The notes: generated by a model not told the origin, from the letters alone. Shown: positions 20,290-46,470, counted from the stretch's first letter. The stretch is 46,470 nt of DNA from Atractiella rhizophila (GCA_021432655.1 MU271281.1:62001-108470); one strand, 5' to 3'. Made by a program: numbers and translations.

Positions 20290-22180
20290 ACATAAAACAG
20301 ACTGCTGACTATTGAACCCTCGTGACCGGAGAGCTAGGGAATGTCGGGAGGCACAGGAGGGATGGAGAAGGTCGGAGAGCGCTGTGGGGTGTCTGGGATT
20401 GAGAGACCAAAGGGGAAAGGAAAGACGGCGGAGAAGTGATGAAGCGGAAGGGACTCGAACGCTGGAGAGGACGAGGAAGCAGAAAGGGAAGAGGAAATGC
20501 TTGAAGTCAGTCCACGGTTCAAGTTCGGATGGATTTAATGCACTTGGCGGCGAAGCCTTCCAATGTTGGAAGCGGCGTTTGCCTTGACAGCTTTTGACTA
20601 CTTCGCTGCCTTCAGCTCCCTGCTTACGGCAGAAAGCAAAGTGACTTCCTGGCTTCGCCGCTTTCGTATCTGATGCAACCCCCTAGGAGGTGTGTAGCAG
20701 CATGGCCTCAGAATCAGCGTCAGCGTCGTTGGAGACTAGGAGTGTGCAGTAGAAGTTGCGTTGTGTTATTGCTGTGTTATGCCATGCACTGTGCTGGCAT
20801 CAACAGCCATGCTCTTTCATCCTAGAGTGTTGAGCTAGTGTTTACAGGGAATGAAATCCTAGGCACCTGCCCGTAATAAGTAGATACTCTCCTTAAGTGG
20901 CTGGCATTCGCATCCTTAGACAAAAAGTTCGCAGTTTAAGGAGCAATAGCGACATGGCTACCAACAGCGGGCTCTTCGAGGCTTAACGTGCTGTATCTGC
21001 CATCGCTCTTTTCGTTTTCTTCATTTGCAGCGCAGTCTATCCGTACACCTCTCTGTTGGTTCCGAGCGCTTACGACCAACTGTAGTAGTAGTAGTAGGAG
21101 GCTTGACATTGGAAAAGTCATAATTCAGAGACTGAGAGTCAAAAACTACCAGTCGTGTGGTGTTGTTTTGGTCCTCTTTGTTCCCCGTTCTTAGTATCTC
21201 GATCTTCTATATTTTCCGTTTACACTTGTACTACACGTTCTCTCGCTCGCTTTCCCAATATGGCTCCGCTCGTCAGTCTCATAAAGAGCGTCTTCTCTCT
21301 TTGACGTGCATTCGTCTTATTCTTCAACATCTTACTTCGCTCTCACTGTAGAAAGCGCTTGTAAGAGCTGAGATAAGATCCTTAAGCCTTAGAAGCGCCG
21401 CGTAAGATGTTTTCTCTCCTTTATTTTCATTCCAATGCCACCGGCGCCTTTCTCACTCTAGTCATAACATAAACTACTGCCTTGACTTCCACATATGCAT
21501 CAGCATGCTCCTTAAACTCTTGAGGCATCTCATACAATAATCCAGAAATGATACCACCAGCCCACCACGGAGACAAACCTAATGGGTCAATCGAACGAGA
21601 ACCTGCCCATCGAATTGAATCAAACTGTCCCGTTCGAAACCCCCACTCCTTTTGGTTTCGATGTGGAACCATATTTCTCTCCCCGAAGAATTGACATTGG
21701 GCAGCCCATTCTTCGTCCAGTAGGTTGTGTAACGCGTCCACCTCTCGTGTCGTGTAGAATTCGGGAAAGACCGCGGCCAAGATAACCTGACGCACTCGCC
21801 GCGATCCTAGAATGGGAACCCCATCGCGTCGCTGCCAGGTAACACCTGATAAATAATGAGTACCAACCCCAATGAAGTGGCACACACGCTGGCGTACCAT
21901 TCATACTCTTTGTCATTGGTGATGACCGGCTTTTCACCAGCTCGTTACACACCTACGGCTGAATTAGTCCATGCATACAGGATTGAGAGCTTACATTTGA
22001 ACCCAAATTTCGCGATTGAGCGGTTCTTGTTTGGGCTGAAAATTGCTCTGTGGAACAAGTCGAGCCACGGTTCAAGTTGATCATACTTATAAATTTTCCA
22101 TATCTTCTTGAACATTATATACATGGATCGACTATGAAAACCCAAATACATGATCGCAAATGTGACTTGATGCATCAAGT
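20290..22180 (-). pseudogene. Decayed intron-containing gene(s) or element of unknown family
   Basis: Protein-like segments (157-aa ORF 21427-21900; YAALLRLKDLISALTSAFYS; YDFSNVKPPTTTTTVGRKRSEPTE) with GT-AG introns, broken by TAA/TAG stops and frame changes. Confidence 0.35.
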
Positions 22181-40578: not shown

Positions 40579-42710
40579 TTAATCGTCAATTACAGTTGTT
40601 GTATCAATACCAACCATCGCATCTGCTCTTCTTTTCTTCAACAGTTCGTCTTTGTCAATGAAATCTGATGCCTGAGAGGTATTGCTTTCCTCTTCTCGAC
40701 ACAAATGGCGCCGAACCATGACGTCTCATGGTCAGGGGTTCCTCCGGCTTTTCCTCTGTCGCGATGGATAGCAATCCTTCTTCTCTTCGACGTTTTAACA
40801 CGTCCTTCGGCTCGAGAAAAGATGACATGACCGAATTAGTCGGGGACGGATTTGCGGTATTGAGTGGGGTGGCGAGATTTGGGGACGGTGAAGAAGATGA
40901 GCCTGAAGCAGCTCCAGACACGCCAGGTTCGTTGATAAACGCTGCTGAAGCTAGGCCCGTTGCTACGACAGGCGCTGGAGCGCCTTCAAATGCGTTCCCC
41001 TTTATAGTTGGTCGGGTAGGGGGAGAGCCTTTCCTTCGCTGATATCTGATAGTGTTTTCGTGTAATTCCTCCTCGTCAGAAGGGGCCTGTGAGACTTGAT
41101 TCGTTTTCCGAGACGAACGAAGCCTTTCCTCGTCGTTTCTCTTGAACGCTTGGTCGATATATCCCGCCAGTAACAGAATAGCATCTTCAGCCTCTGGCAT
41201 AAGACTTATCATTTGAAGGAATCCGTGACTCCAGCCCTGGAAGCATGATTCAGAAATGGCACTCATAGACACCTTCCACTCACAGAGTAAATACGTGTGA
41301 CTATCAGTAAGGATTAGCCAAACACTAGTGGGAACAAAGGGAGAACAAACCAGCCCAATCGTCCTCGCACTGCTCAATAATGGGGTCGTCCGGTATACGA
41401 CTTGTCATCCTCAAATCACCCTGTCGATTCATTTTGGCTAGTGCTCGAGCTCTCCTCTGAGCCTTTGCTTGATGAATTTTCGCAGCCCAAAGCAGTGTAT
41501 CGTCGACGACGGGATCACGTTCACCTGGTTCGCTGTTCAGCAAAATAGGGTCACTATTGAGGCAGTGACCTACCACAAATCAGGTACACAGGTGGTAGTT
41601 GTTCTAGGAGCCTCGGTTCGCCAAGGATAGGAGAGATCATGTAGTTGTTCGTCAAATCAGGGCTATTTTCCCCTACATAACAAAGGGCCATCGTTCGCAT
41701 CTGCAAAAAAATCAATCTCGGTCTAGTTAAATCGGAAAGATTCTAACCATTGTTGGGGCAATGATTCTATCGTTGAAGAATGATGTCCTTGAAGTCATAG
41801 TCAGCCTCGTTCCAAGTGTTGTAGTCTGACGCCGAATAAGAGGCCTGCTCCCCCTCCTCGGAAACCTGATCATTTCGTCAACGGTTCTATCCGATTGCGC
41901 ATTCTGTTCCTCGTCACTGGTATCCAACTCGCTCGTCTCCACATCGCCCATGTCTGCGTCGGCATCAGTAGTCGGCTCGCTGAAGAGCTCAAATTTTGGT
42001 TTCTGTGGAGGAATCGGCGTCTTGACATCGTCATTAATTCCACCCGTACTTGAAGAGGATTTGTCAGCCTGAGCTGAGGGAGTACGTTCTTGGGATATCG
42101 CCCGAGTGAAGTTGATTCGGCTGATGCTTTTCCGTAAGCTACGTCCCCAACCTCCATTACGGTCTTTGGAATTATCTCGATCATCGTCCACGACGGCGAG
42201 TGGGGATTTGTGTCGCATGTGATCTTTGGTCGAAAGAAGGCTGCCCATATGAGTTGGTCCCTCCGCTCTTAGTGTTGCGAGATCCCGGGAGGTCATCCAG
42301 GCGTGAAAGTCGAAGTCGAGGGCTGGATACGCGTAAACGAGCCCGACAGGAAGAGGCAGACGATGCGCGGCCTCCAGTTCAAGGAGACGGTATGTCATAG
42401 CGGTAGATATGTTCGCGCCACTGTAGTCCCCGACTCAGAAAAGCAGTCAGAACATCGCTGTGGAACTTACGCTGAGTCTCCAGTCAGTACTATGTCGATT
42501 TTATTCCGACCCATTCCTATCATAGAACCTTTGGACTGCACCAAAATCTTGTACAAGTCGAGGCATTCATCGATTGCGTACGGATATGGGTATTCTGGTG
42601 CCTACTCCGATGTTATGAGTGCGTGCGTCAAAAGACAGGGAATAGTATTCACTTTACGATAATCAACGCTGAGAACCGGTTTCTGGGTCTTGAGTGCCCA
42701 CCGAAGAATA
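40579..42710 (-). CDS. Hormone-sensitive-lipase-family alpha/beta hydrolase, C-terminal exons
   Basis: ILRWALKTQKPVLSVDYRK, APEYPYPYAIDEC, LTGDSAGGN, YAYPAL, GERDPVVDD and GWSHGFLQM. Confidence 0.9.
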
Positions 42711-42750
42711 CTACACAAAATTAGCATTCGAGATGGTTCAAAAGATTGCA

Positions 42751-43389
42751 TCCTCGAGAAAGTGACAAGGGCTGCTTGGCTTCTACTTCCTGTGCGGTTC
42801 GAAGAGTGTGAGGAGGAAATGTGAGTTCCTGCGAAGTCGGCGTAAGCGGGTGGGCCGTAACGGTAACTTCTGCTCGCAGGTTAGAAGAAAGAGGAGACTA
42901 TTGTTGCGGCCCTTAAAGAAGCTGTCCCTCCGAGATAGGTTTAGAAGCTCGTCCCTCCGCAGTGGCATAACGGAACACAAGAGCTATCGAAACCTCTTTC
43001 TTCAGTTCTCGCTCGGAAGAACCCTTGGTTTCTAGGTTGGTCAGAACACTTTCACTCCAAACTTCTACCCCAGTCTTAGGGTATCTGATTCACGAAGTAC
43101 ACGTTCGAGTCACATATGTGCTAGGAGTATAAGACAAGCGTCCTAGACGAGTGACTAGTTGAACCTTGGATAGTTCTTGTGGTCCGTGTGAAACAAATTT
43201 AGACAAGGCCGCGAGTTACCTCTCCCTGTTCCCACAAATAGGTTCGTTTGTTGTAACGCTATGGGAAAGGAACGCTCCACTTCCCGGCAACTGTCAGGAA
43301 CTTTCGGCCTTACTCCCCCATAAGCAAACATTAGAAACTTCTACGGATGGTTTGCAAGGCGTGGGATGGTTATTTTAAAATAGTAGGTA
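42751..43389. CDS. N-terminal exons of the FAD-dependent fructosyl-amine/sarcosine oxidase, readable only right-to-left without complementing
   Basis: MDDKILLVGCGTFG|LSTALHLARKGYRNVVCLDKHPCPSPLSAGTDLNK|ILRTEYEDRVYTELAHEALSLWDSDPIFKPHFHKTGWIF...GNAGWANAAEASLSVKEECEKLGVSFIFGSSGTVKEL, with two GT-AG introns. Confidence 0.93.
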
Positions 43390-43748
43390 AAAGCTTTCTG
43401 AAGCTAACCTTAACTCCAATCTAATACCTTTCCTCGTTCGAAGAGGAACTAGTTAGTGCATCGGGGAAAACGACTTGTTCACGTTCAGGCAGCTTTAAGG
43501 GAGTCGCAGAAATAAATAGCCAACACGAGACTTCTTGCTTTACTAGATTGTCCGTTCCTCTCCAAAAGTTTAGATAAAGTTTAGTTTGGTTACGAATACC
43601 GTTGCATGCGTATTGCATGAGCCCGTCCATGCGTCGCACGACGTAACTAAAGTGTACAAGAGTGGGCGTTTGTTTTCCCTCACAGCGGTAGCAGCGGAAG
43701 GGTAGAGGGTTTTGTAATCTCGACGTCATGGTAATTTGATAAACGTCG

Positions 43749-44844
43749 TACTATCTAGTGGAGAATCCCGCAGGTTCGCAGAGAACCTTCGCTAGCGTCC
43801 ACGCAACAACGTGGTAAAAGTTCCGCTAACAAGTACCTCGAGTTACTACATCCAGAAAGAGCAGTAGTAAAAGACCAAAACCTCCAACGCTCAGCCTTTG
43901 GGAGCACCTGGAAAGAAAGAGTTTCCGAATTTGAAGTTTGAGGCATGCAATACGGGTAAAGGTACGAAACACGTTTCGAGTGAGAAAGGGCAGACATCCT
44001 GTTATAGTTGGTACCGTCGAGTAAGAGAGTTGAAATTATTCAGAGATACGTTACTCTTTGCGGCTATCATAGGAACCTGAATTAGCATCTGAAGAATGAG
44101 TGTGACACATCTCTATAGAACGACTCAACGTCCGACATCGTGGACTCGGAGAGCGGTTTTAGATAAGTGGATCAATGAAAGCTCGCTGAACCTAGTAGTG
44201 GCGGGAGCTGCGACCAAAGCGTTGCACATACGTGTAGTTCGGGTTCGAAACCTCTCTAGAAAACAGGAAGGAGAAACGCCACTCACAAGTTGAATGCCGT
44301 TAATACGTAGACTTTGACGTGTTCCCGATGAAGAACCAAATACGTTTACGACGACTACTTCACCATACAAAGAAGAAACGGGTGTTTTAGACCTTGATTA
44401 AAACTACTACATCAATTCTTTCGTAGCGCGCTCCACGTGGCAACACTCATAAGGCGCGACAGTCACACATCAAAGCGGATTGAGGTTTCATCCTGAAGGA
44501 AGCGTGTTGCAATCAGGAGAGTTAAGTGAGTTTTAAAAAGATTGGTTTATGTTCAACCCTCTTCTGGTGGTTGGGAAAGTAGGCGAAGAAGTGTGCGTTG
44601 CTGGCGGGTTAACATTTGTAAGCTGCGTCCGACCACTAAGGAGCTGGTCGCCCGAGTAGAATGTCCATGAGAAAGTAAACGTGGTGTCTTATCTAACAGT
44701 GAGTTGTCACACAGCATCTTTTGGTTATCAAACGACCGACATGAAACGCCCTTGACTTGATCTGGAACATCTTACATTTCTGAACTAGGAACTGTAAGGC
44801 CCTCCCCCTAAGCAGAGGTACTTAGGCAATGTGGTGCTTCTAGC
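43749..44844. CDS. N-terminal exons of the HSL-family lipase, readable only as the plain complement left-to-right
   Basis: MIDHLLGRPSVSWKRSQ|VFLVIIFWFWRL...YSPSYFRATWIITALDAGFATCMHIKPKLWRD...WEKTTNPFIRFF...LILDIPGGGFVSMNPLHHEDR, with canonical GT-AG introns. Confidence 0.93.
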
Positions 44845-44855
44845 CACCCAGAGAG

Positions 44856-44994
44856 NNNNNNNNNNNNNNNNNNNNNNNNNNNNNNNNNNNNNNNNNNNNN
44901 NNNNNNNNNNNNNNNNNNNNNNNNNNNNNNNNNNNNNNNNNNNNNNNNNNNNNNNNNNNNNNNNNNNNNNNNNNNNNNNNNNNNNNNNNNNNNN
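44856..44994. other. Assembly gap (139 N)
   Basis: Run of N. Confidence 1.
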
Positions 44995-45621
44995 GTAGCT
45001 GTGTGCGCAACGATGTGTCAGATGGTTTTGTCGAAGGATGAGGTGGAGCGGTATATGGATAACCCAGTCATAGACTGCAAGGGGAAGGGTTACTTCTTTC
45101 CTCCAGTTCTGCAATCGGATGGTACTGGCATATTGAAGGGATGTGATTTGACGAAAGGACGCCCGAACTGGGACGAGAGTGGAACTATTTCGACGCCTCT
45201 TATGCTTGACGTTAACGAGAACCCGAGCCAACCATTGAAGGAGAGGGATGAAGCCGGTGTCAGGAAATTACTCAGACTTTGGGTGCCAGACTTAGCTGAG
45301 AAGGAGTTTACCAAGACCCGCGTATGTCTCTCATTCGAAAAAAATGAAATTTCACGTGTCGGGAAATTTCTACAGATCTGTTGGGACTCAGAAAGTTTCG
45401 ACAAATCATGGATCATTAGCTCGCACCCGTCGTCCCCAAAAAGCTTGTTTCTCGCCACAGGAGGCAGCCGACACAGCTTCAAAAACCTCACGAACGTTGG
45501 AAAATACGTCGTAGAGTGCTTAGAAGGAAAAAATAGAGAGGAGTGGCGTTGGAGACCTGAAAAAGTAGTGTCGGACTGGGCAAAAGATAGAGAGGACATC
45601 AAAAGTGTGCTTGGATGGTAG
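44995..45621 (+). CDS. FAD-dependent fructosyl-amine/sarcosine/pipecolate oxidase family, C-terminal part
   Basis: GYFFPP, ILKGCD, ICWDSESFDKSWIISSHP, LFLATGGSRHSFKNLTNVGKYVV and WRWRP. Confidence 0.88.
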   Translation, partial: VAVCATMCQMVLSKDEVERYMDNPVIDCKGKGYFFPPVLQSDGTGILKGCDLTKGRPNWDESGTISTPLMLDVNENPSQPLKERDEAGVRKLLRLWVPDLAEKEFTKTRVCLSFEKNEISRVGKFLQICWDSESFDKSWIISSHPSSPKSLFLATGGSRHSFKNLTNVGKYVVECLEGKNREEWRWRPEKVVSDWAKDREDIKSVLGW

Positions 45622-46470
45622 AAAGAGCCTTTACTCTCCCCCTGTCAATGTCTTGACAAAATGTACAACATTCGAAAAAAGCAGGCCTGTCGCAAAACAC
45701 AATTCCCGCCACTAGCAATCAAGAAAATATGAATATCCACCACCATCATGAGTGACTTGATAACTTTCCTACCCGGTGCTTACTACGATAGGCAATCAAG
45801 GGCCAGGACGACGCTAATTTTACTGTATAACGCTCAGCCTCTCGTCGTCGCCTCGGATGCAGTATGGGCAAAAAGTGCGCAAGCGCAAGGATCATCGTCA
45901 TCTTGAGAGCGGGAACGAGACGCTGACAGCCCCCATTTGTTGAAACTGTGATGCCATCGTTCAAGCCATAACAGAACCCGTTTCTAATAACACACGCGGG
46001 AGTTCGGCAAGAGACATCTTCTTCAGCGCGCAGCTCGCCCTTGAGTTTGAGTGCTAGCCTCTTGCCATCGCCCTGGCCATTGCCATTTAAAGCCAATACA
46101 GACCATGATTCCATTCAAGTTGTGGTGAGAATAGACACAGTGTTTTGACGTACCCAAGATCCCCGCAAGGTGCCTTCAAATACTCCCTAACCGATCGCAG
46201 GTCCCAACTCCCCAGCCAACCCCCCGTCGAGTTTTGCACGCCATCAAGCGTTGTTCAAGCGATACTCAGAGTGGAACATTTGTCACATCTCTTATCTCTT
46301 TCCGGCGCTCCGCGGCACAATTCCGGCAGAGCTGCACTACCCATCGATTCGACGATTCAACGACCACCTGACCCCGCCGAAACGCCTGTCCTAGCTTTGC
46401 TTGGTTCTACCCAATCTCAGCTCAACAAAGCGACAGTAGCTCGGTGTCGAGGTCGAAAGAATCGAATCCT

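What the first reader, a model, noticed from the sequence alone, without database searches (positions are those of the whole stretch)
42751..44855. Mirror-written DNA: 2.1 kb reversed but not complemented, hiding halves of two genes
Seen: the block looks like stop-rich junk with excess CTAG/TTAG, yet simple string reversal (x to 87606-x) repairs the locus. The lipase intron becomes GTGGGTCTCTC+TGCAATC...GCTAATTTTGTGTAG (51 nt), joining HHEDR|ILRWALK in frame. The oxidase then runs GSSGTVKEL-[139 N]-VAVCATMCQ, a gap of about the size expected for the missing residues. Established: biological inversions give reverse complements, and no known polymerase or recombinase yields a pure reversal. Inference: a gap-filling, scaffolding or editing error next to the N-gap. 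If real in reads it would be unprecedented.
Basis: partly seen in the sequence, partly recalled or inferred. Interest (0 to 1): 0.9.

Follow-up and report, generated by a model that had tools for sequence, protein, structure and literature searches.

The report
Backwards-written block: a genome assembly error
About 2.1 kb of this fungal genome record, next to a gap, was written backwards without being complemented, a software error that hides the front halves of two ordinary genes and does not exist in the organism's DNA.

Summary
The block as written matches nothing. Reversing the string without complementing it restores the N-terminal halves of two diverging genes. One is a hormone-sensitive-lipase-like alpha/beta hydrolase (PF07859). 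The other is a fructosyl-amine-oxidase-like FAD oxidase (PF01266).

- **Homologues:** 0 of 60 lipase homologues and 0 of 150 oxidase hits touch the block as written. After reversal, 45 of 60 and 70 of 150 do.
- **Second copy:** the same public annotation (Atractiella rhizophila) holds full-length copies of both genes, P0212 and P0213. They match the reversed block exon by exon at 82-100% identity.
- **Public runs:** DNA contigs (X1/X2) follow the window to 42745. They then continue with 30 of 30 letters equal to the reversed end of the block. Spliced RNA contigs (X3, X5) join exon 42711 to the reversed block.
- **Composition:** a 5-mer model prefers the reversed direction, z = -6.0 against 20 controls.

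The window's own public gene models are cut short at the block edge (592 vs 841 aa) and after the gap (181 vs 415 aa). The fault therefore lies in the public record. It is not biology, and interest is low apart from its value for curation.

The parts
42746..44855 (.). Block of 2110 nt written reversed without complement. The true sequence is this string read right to left (map x to 87601-x).
   Evidence: Homologues hit it only after reversal. The DNA-contig loose end at 42745 equals the reversed block end, 30/30. The 5-mer score is -40.0 against controls of +55.2 (sd 15.9).
44856..44994 (.). Run of 139 N, an assembly gap. It hides about 43 codons of the oxidase (P0213 residues 183-225).
   Evidence: N run found. 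P0213 residues 183-225 are unmatched on either side. The contig loose end before 44995 translates to SLELGWNGQL, which equals P0213 216-225.
43749..44844 (.). Lipase (Abhydrolase_3, HSL-like) codons 1-231, in 8 exon segments. The coding strand is the complement of the written letters read left to right, that is, the minus strand of the corrected sequence. It includes the start ATG and the PGGG motif.
   Evidence: Ungapped tblastn of P0212 residues 1-231 gives 82-100% identity. The last exon matches P0212 at 42 of 42 residues and the first exon starts with M.
44845..44855 (.). First 11 nt (GTGGGTCTCTC on the true coding strand) of the 46-nt lipase intron that spans the block edge. The remaining 35 nt are window 42745-42711 on the minus strand.
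   Evidence: RNA contigs of X3 and X5 join 42711 to the reversed block, 30/30 letters. The 46-nt length and the GT..AG ends come.
40582..42745 (-). Correctly written part of the lipase gene. It holds the 3' 35 nt of the boundary intron (42711-42745) and the exons for P0212-type residues 232-841, including GDSAG. Introns lie at 42601-42651, 42421-42470, 41701-41747, 41523-41571 and about 41243-41351.
   Evidence: tblastn of P0001 and P0212. Spliced joints with CT..AC ends in X3 and X5 (table 5). GDSAG seen.
42746..43389 (.). Oxidase (DAO family, fructosyl-amine-oxidase-like) codons 1-182, in 3 exon segments. The coding strand is the written letters read right to left, that is, the plus strand of the corrected sequence. 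The ATG lies at window 43389 and the GCGTFG dinucleotide-binding motif at residue 9.
   Evidence: Ungapped tblastn of P0213 residues 1-182 gives 92.5-100% identity. End motif matches 10/10. M and GCGTFG seen.
43390..43748 (.). 359-nt spacer between the two diverging start codons, presumably a shared promoter region. It is also written backwards.
   Evidence: It lies between the two start codons mapped. The 500-nt composition windows across it are all negative.
44995..45621 (+). Correctly written C-terminal half of the oxidase (P0213 residues 226-415), with one intron at 45322-45375.
   Evidence: PDB fructosyl peptide/amine oxidases align to residues 243-410, E = 2.4e-16. P0213 and P0062 align here. 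A GT..AG joint 45321/45376 appears in X3.

Best explanation
The block 42746-44855 is a text-processing error in the public genome assembly, not a state of the organism's DNA. The stretch between the end of good sequence (42745) and the remaining 139-N gap was correctly determined. It was then written into the scaffold in reversed letter order without complementation.

The same string results from complementing an opposite-strand piece without reversing it. It also results from storing an outward contig extension in walking order.

The true locus holds two diverging genes separated by a 359-nt spacer:
- an HSL-like alpha/beta hydrolase on the minus strand;
- a fructosyl-amine-oxidase-like FAD oxidase on the plus strand.

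Because the block is unreadable as written, the annotation pipeline produced truncated models: 592 aa instead of about 841, and 181 aa instead of about 415.

Shown: the reversal itself, its exact edges, that contigs of public runs carry the reversed form, and that the public gene models are truncated. Inferred: which program or step made the error.
For: 1. **Homology only after reversal.** 0 of 60 lipase homologues hit the block as written and 45 of 60 hit it reversed. For the oxidase set the figures are 0 of 150 and 70 of 150 (first seen).
2. **A second full-length copy exists.** The same public annotation holds both genes again on a 70,499-nt contig: P0212 (841 aa) and P0213 (415 aa). They match the reversed block exon by exon. 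P0212 residues 1-231 fall in 8 segments at 82-100% identity, and P0213 residues 1-182 in 3 segments at 92.5-100%. One exon matches at 42 of 42 residues.
3. **Contigs of public runs (table 7).** X1 and X2 come from one sample. Their contigs keep the introns, so they are DNA. They match 42483-42745 with 0 differences, then run on for a median of 255 letters. The first 30 letters shown equal the reversed block end, 30/30. X3 and X5 have spliced contigs. They end at 42711 and run on for 241 and 185 letters, starting 30/30 with the reversed block from the position that gives a GT..AG intron of 46 nt.
4. **Composition.** The 5-mer Markov score LL(as written) minus LL(reversed) is -40.0 for the block. 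Twenty leave-one-out control chunks of the same length give a mean of +55.2, sd 15.9 and minimum +24.5, so z = -6.0. All 18 windows of 500 nt starting 42601-44301 are negative. Among 84 controls, 96% are positive.
5. **The fault is in the public record.** P0001 and P0062 have consecutive accessions on a 108,470-nt contig. They match the window's exons at 87-100% identity per ungapped segment. P0001 starts at an ATG at 42727, inside the boundary intron. P0062 starts just after the gap.
6. **The join is flush.** No base is lost or duplicated at 42745/42746, and the block ends exactly at the N run. This fits a one-sided extension or patch into a gap.
Against: - I could not read the DNA of the public record itself. 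No genome is held for this window, so the claim that the record carries the fault rests on the truncated gene models.
- Only the first 30 letters of each loose end are shown. The reads therefore confirm the reversed form directly at one edge only. The rest of the block rests on protein matches and composition.
- The laid data are contigs, not raw reads, and X1/X2 may be the very sample the assembly came from.
- In one search, one gapped HSP of P0212 on the window as written (residues 183-294, 53% identity over 137) runs 135 nt into the block, to 42880. It follows a chance open frame (42602-42880). The same residues 189-231 match the reversed version at 100%.
- Open-frame length after reversal (204 aa) is not beyond the shuffles (maximum 212 aa).
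- Five full-text searches found no described case of this error type and no named tool with such a bug.
Confidence: 0.96

Rival explanations
1. The reversal was made after the public record, for example in the handling of this window or as a deliberate spike-in control. On this reading the deposited scaffold is correct.
For: I could not fetch the deposited DNA. The oxidase model truncated after the gap (P0062) could be explained by the gap alone.
Against: The public lipase model P0001 begins at an in-intron ATG at 42727, 19 nt from the block edge. It lacks the 231 N-terminal codons that the second copy P0212 has. With a correct scaffold, these exons would be contiguous and the model would be expected to be full length.
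Confidence: 0.03
2. The block is real DNA in the organism, written in mirror order by some unknown biological process.
For: None found. The block sits in a deposited record.
Against: DNA-type and RNA-type contigs of public runs carry the reversed, normal form at the junction. No contig of the four laid runs showed the written form. A second copy in the same annotation encodes both genes normally. Established knowledge: template-directed polymerases and recombinases produce reverse complements, never plain reversals.
Confidence: 0.003
3. The block is an ordinary inversion (reverse complement), or unrelated inserted or junk sequence such as a degraded repeat. On this reading the match after reversal is chance.
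For: As written, the block has no long open frame and is stop-rich.
Against: Six-frame tblastn of the block as written covers the reverse complement and gives 0 of 60 and 0 of 150 hits. After reversal, 413 codons match the second-copy proteins at 82-100% identity. They lie in collinear order, with start codons, GT..AG introns and family motifs. The composition z-score is -6.0.
Confidence: 0.002

Closest known systems
Ordinary misassembly or scaffolding inversion (a piece placed as its reverse complement) next to a gap
   Same: It is caused by software, lies next to a gap, breaks gene models, and is absent from the reads.
   Different: A misplaced reverse complement is still a readable DNA strand and is found by any BLAST search. 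Here only the letter order was reversed, so neither strand matches anything (0 of 210 queries).
Reversed, non-complemented sequence used on purpose as a decoy or negative control (e.g. Dfam, PMC3531169; MPRA designs, PMC4971761)
   Same: It is exactly the same string operation, and it keeps base composition while destroying homology. I saw only the search listing showing the phrase occurs in these papers.
   Different: Those are deliberate and labelled. This one sits unlabelled inside a deposited genome scaffold.
Claims of 'swinger' RNAs with systematic nucleotide exchanges (Seligmann; e.g. PMC4942731, PMC7027195)
   Same: These are database sequences that match their template only after a systematic letter transformation. 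I saw only the search listing and the abstract openings. That the exchange set includes the full complement, which equals a plain reversal of the other strand, is my own inference.
   Different: Those papers propose a biological polymerisation mode for RNAs and ESTs. Here the run contigs carry the normal form, so no such process is needed or supported.
Natural mirror repeats (H-DNA motifs; PMC9171763, search listing only)
   Same: The letter order is mirrored without complementation.
   Different: Natural mirror repeats are short purine/pyrimidine tracts with both arms side by side. This is 2.1 kb of complex genic sequence with no partner arm in the window.
Hormone-sensitive-lipase-like alpha/beta hydrolases (PF07859) and fructosyl amine/peptide oxidases (PF01266; PDB 6iwe, 4rsl)
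   Same: The two genes hidden in the block belong to these ordinary families.
   Different: Nothing unusual, except a PGGG motif where, from recall, the HSL family usually has HGGG.

Membership tests
Reverse-without-complement writing error (assembly/post-processing artefact) | Homology and coding signal appear only after plain string reversal, on neither strand as written | tested here: met
   0/60 and 0/150 queries hit the block as written, against 45/60 and 70/150 after reversal. Exon-level identity to P0212 and P0213 is 82-100%.
Reverse-without-complement writing error (assembly/post-processing artefact) | Sequencing data of the organism carry the reversed (normal) form across the junction | tested here: met
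   Loose ends at 42745 (X1, X2) and at 42711 (X3, X5) equal the reversed block, 30/30 letters each. These are contigs rather than raw reads, and only the first 30 letters are shown.
Reverse-without-complement writing error (assembly/post-processing artefact) | k-mer direction statistics are mirrored relative to the rest of the genome | tested here: met
   Block score -40.0 against +55.2 (sd 15.9), z = -6.0. GATC/CTAG and TA/AT ratios are inverted.
Reverse-without-complement writing error (assembly/post-processing artefact) | The fault is present in the deposited record and traceable to a named pipeline step | tested here: inconclusive
   The truncated public models P0001 and P0062 imply that the record has the fault. 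The record's DNA and its assembly history could not be read, and no paper on the assembly was found.
Biological or assembly inversion (reverse complement) | The reverse complement of the block restores the genes | tested here: not met
   Six-frame tblastn of the block as written covers both strands and gives 0 hits.
Abhydrolase_3 / hormone-sensitive-lipase-like (PF07859) | Pfam domain above the gathering score; GDSAG nucleophile motif; HGGG-type oxyanion motif (both motifs recalled from knowledge of the family) | tested here: met
   P0212 scores 110.9 bits and P0001 98.8 bits against a cut-off of 25. GDSAG is present. The oxyanion motif reads PGGG, not HGGG.
DAO family FAD oxidoreductase, fructosyl amine/peptide oxidase-like (PF01266) | Pfam domain above the gathering score; N-terminal GxGxxG; similarity to solved fructosyl oxidases | tested here: met
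   P0213 scores 98.3 bits against a cut-off of 27.9. GCGTFG lies at residue 9, encoded in the reversed block. The window's C-terminal half aligns to 6iwe residues 243-410, E = 2.4e-16. Substrate was not tested.

The most novel reading that the evidence does not exclude
The error is systematic rather than a one-off. On this reading, the step that wrote this block backwards did the same at other gap edges of this assembly, and perhaps in other assemblies made with the same pipeline. That would leave a hidden class of mirror-written blocks in public genomes. Such blocks keep normal base composition, escape BLAST-based checks, and silently truncate gene models. A simple directional k-mer score, as, would find them.
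Probability: 0.3. Interest if true: 0.3.

Novelty: not a real feature. Interest (0 to 1): 0.1.

Why it matters
For biology, it matters little. The locus is an ordinary pair of diverging fungal genes.

For curation, it has some use:
- Two public protein models are truncated because of it: 592 aa instead of about 841, and 181 aa instead of about 415.
- This kind of error is invisible to GC or composition checks and to homology searches on either strand.
- The directional 5-mer score (z = -6.0 for 2.1 kb) and the inverted GATC/CTAG and TA/AT ratios offer a cheap screen for further cases.
- It is also a caution for sequence-only readers and language models. Stop-rich 'junk' next to a gap can be real genes written backwards.

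Tried and rejected
- **Pfam on window fragments.** The three fragments gave no family at E<=0.01. The families came from the full-length proteins instead.
- **First oxidase homologue search.** A word-index search for longer oxidase homologues found none. The exhaustive search replaced it.
- **PDB search with the lipase exon.** It gave only chance matches, E >= 0.33.
- **Whole-genome scan for further mirror blocks.** This was impossible because no genome is held.
- **Depth hole.** All four laid runs have depth 0 in the ten bins 42900-44899, while both flanks are covered. I rely on the loose ends instead.
- **Word share.** For a query made half of flank and half of block, no run of the 17 listed held half of the words. 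The best shares were 0.38, 0.37 and 0.30. This is suggestive only and is not counted.
- **Open-frame length.** As a test of the reversal it is not significant: 204 aa against a shuffle maximum of 212 aa.
The edges 42751-44855 and the 51-nt intron were rejected in favour of 42746-44855 and 46 nt.
- **A first count.** That came from my coordinate filter, because HSPs ran through the N gap in frame. It was corrected: 73 against 70 of 150.
- **Case-sensitive complement bug.** I considered a revcomp routine that fails to complement a lower-case patch, or a whole-scaffold flip with the same fault. By string logic, both give a complement-only block in place, not the reversal seen here. I dropped the idea.
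- **Literature.** Searches found no report of reversed, non-complemented blocks in assemblies.
- **Earlier notes of this scan.** Nothing relevant was found.

Full report
**What the window shows as written**

Positions 42751-44855 lie directly before the only N run of the window, 44856-44994 (139 N). The six frames of the block hold 28-50 stops each. The longest open stretch is 109 aa, which equals the mean of 200 shuffles, 108 aa.

Two gene halves flank the block.

- On the minus strand, below 42711, lies the C-terminal part of an alpha/beta hydrolase. Its best hit, P0001, is named 'alpha/beta-hydrolase [Atractiella rhizophila]' at 97% identity. Sixty further hits are hormone-sensitive-lipase-like proteins of basidiomycetes carrying PF07859.
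- On the plus strand, from 44995, lies the C-terminal half of a fructosyl amine/peptide oxidase homologue. It aligns to residues 243-410 of PDB 6iwe at E = 2.4e-16.

The window is therefore fungal, most likely from that species or a near relative.

**Test of the reversal**

In a script I built copies of the window with the block string-reversed and ran tblastn against them.

- Of the 60 lipase homologues P0002-P0061, 0 gave an HSP overlapping the block as written by 60 nt or more. After reversal, 45 did, all on the minus strand (first seen).
- Of the 150 oxidase hits P0062-P0211, 0 touched the block as written. Only 68 of these 150 proteins are 380 aa or longer.
- tblastn reads six frames, so the zero result also rules out a normal reverse-complement inversion.

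Open-frame length alone would not have proved anything. The longest frame after reversal is 204 aa, and the shuffle maximum is 212 aa.

**A second copy in the same annotation**

The clusters of P0001 and P0062 each hold one more protein from the same organism. These are P0212 (841 aa, alpha/beta hydrolase) and P0213 (415 aa, FAD-dependent oxidoreductase). They have consecutive accessions and sit on a 70,499-nt contig. P0001 (592 aa) and P0062 (181 aa) have consecutive accessions on a 108,470-nt contig.

P0001 is 98.3% identical to P0212 over residues 232-806. P0062 is 94.5% identical to P0213 over residues 235-415.

Ungapped tblastn on the reversed version gives these matches:

| Protein | Residues | Segments | Identity | Window coordinates |
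|---|---|---|---|---|
| P0212 | 1-231 | 8 collinear | 82-100% | 43749-44845 |
| P0213 | 1-182 | 3 | 92.5-100% | 43389 down to 42747 |

The last lipase exon in the block matches P0212 at 42 of 42 residues. Both first exons start with M. The oxidase exon carries GCGTFG at residue 9, as in P0213.

Pfam gives PF07859 for P0212 and P0001, and PF01266 for P0213.

**Sequencing data**

I asked for runs with a query made half of flank and half of block. No run of the 17 listed held half of the words, and the best share was 0.38. I then laid four runs.

- X1 and X2 come from one sample. Their contigs keep the introns, so they are DNA. They match 42483-42745 without a difference and then run on for a median of 255 letters that fit nothing in the window. 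The 30 letters shown are exactly the last 30 letters of the block read backwards. I compared them by eye with the block end printed.
- X3 and X5 have contigs that skip four lipase introns with CT..AC ends, so they derive from RNA. They end at 42711 and run on for 241 and 185 letters. These begin, 30 of 30, with the reversed block from window 44843 downwards.
- Before 44995, contigs run 25-63 letters into the gap. These letters translate to SLELGWNGQL, which equals P0213 residues 216-225. The gap therefore hides ordinary oxidase coding sequence.

The block itself had depth 0 in all four runs.

**Exact edges**

The DNA contigs leave the window at 42745, not 42750. With the block taken as 42746-44855, the reversed string abuts 42745 with no base lost or duplicated. 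Its other end reads ...SSGTVKELLR, identical to P0213 residues 173-182.

- The map is therefore x to 87601-x.
- The intron across the edge is 46 nt. It consists of 11 nt in the block and 35 nt at 42745-42711, with GT..AG ends.
- P0213 residues 183-225 (43 codons, about 129 nt) are missing, against 139 N.

**Composition**

I trained a 5-mer Markov model on the rest of the window, using both strands.

- Its score, LL(as written) minus LL(reversed), averages +55.2 (sd 15.9, minimum +24.5) for 20 leave-one-out chunks of 2110 nt. For the block it is -40.0, so z = -6.0.
- All 18 windows of 500 nt starting 42601-44301 are negative. Among 84 control windows, 96% are positive.
- GATC/CTAG is 2/12 in the block against 8.0/3.6 expected. 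TA/AT is 127/86 against 75.7/123.5. CG/GC and TCGA/AGCT do not differ.
- Elsewhere in the window, 1 of 167 windows of 1 kb is marginally negative (20501-21500, -2.3). I found no second block.

**Where the error sits and how it arose**

P0001 starts MLILCS..., from an ATG at 42727. That ATG lies inside the boundary intron, 19 nt from the block edge. P0062 starts at the first M after the gap. A gene caller given the correct sequence would be expected to find the contiguous upstream lipase exons, as it did for P0212. I therefore infer that the deposited scaffold already has the block backwards. I could not read the record itself.

The block is flush with good sequence on one side and ends at the residual gap on the other. 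This is the layout of a one-sided extension or patch into a gap.

By string logic, the observed form equals the true sequence reversed only. That arises in three ways:

- a correctly oriented piece is reversed without complement;
- an opposite-strand piece is complemented without reversal;
- an outward walk from a contig's 5' end is stored in walking order.

A reverse-complement routine that merely fails to complement would give a complement-only block in place. That is not what is seen. Which program did this is unknown, and these candidates are inference.

**Literature**

Four full-text searches found the phrase only for deliberate decoys and controls, for example Dfam (PMC3531169) and reporter-assay designs. 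I found no report of such an assembly error. I saw only the search listings.

A search on Seligmann's 'swinger' papers (listings and abstract openings only) shows the nearest published biological claim of systematically transformed sequences. The data here give it no support.

**Verdict**

The feature is not real biology. Its value lies in correcting two truncated public gene models and in a simple screen for similar errors.

Noticed in passing
window 40686-40688: All four laid runs lack one base at 40686 relative to the window (table 4). P0212 switches frame there: residues 622-806 end at 40688 and residues 807-841 start at 40686. The window's own model P0001 instead runs to a stop at 40658. 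This is either a real 1-nt difference between haplotypes or a second assembly error that alters the lipase C-terminus. The contigs laid there differ from the window at about 1% of positions, so they may be the other haplotype.
   Followed up: partly
window 42087-42297 and the whole locus: Two sequence versions coexist. X1, X2 and X3 each give one contig with 0 differences and one with 13 differences plus a 3-nt gap (table 8). The public annotation also holds a second copy of both genes on another contig, 98.3% and 94.5% identical at the protein level. This points to two haplotypes (a dikaryon or heterozygote) or a recent duplication, both of which were assembled.
   Followed up: partly
window 45625-45670: A 44-nt skip with non-intron ends (AG..AC), just after the oxidase stop codon, appears in contigs of X1, X2 and X3, so in DNA-type data too (table 5). 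It is probably an indel between haplotypes rather than splicing.
   Followed up: no
window 46352: Eight letters of the window are absent from the contigs of X1, X2 and X3 at full depth (table 4). This is either an indel polymorphism or a small assembly error.
   Followed up: no
P0212 residues 214-220 (window 44717-44844, reversed block): The oxyanion-hole motif of this HSL-like hydrolase reads PGGG. From recall, the family usually has HGGG. The GDSAG nucleophile motif is intact.
   Followed up: no
window 20501-21500: This is the only other 1-kb window (1 of 167) with a slightly negative direction score, -2.3. It lies within the spread of the 500-nt controls (minimum -7.1) and is probably noise.
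   Followed up: no
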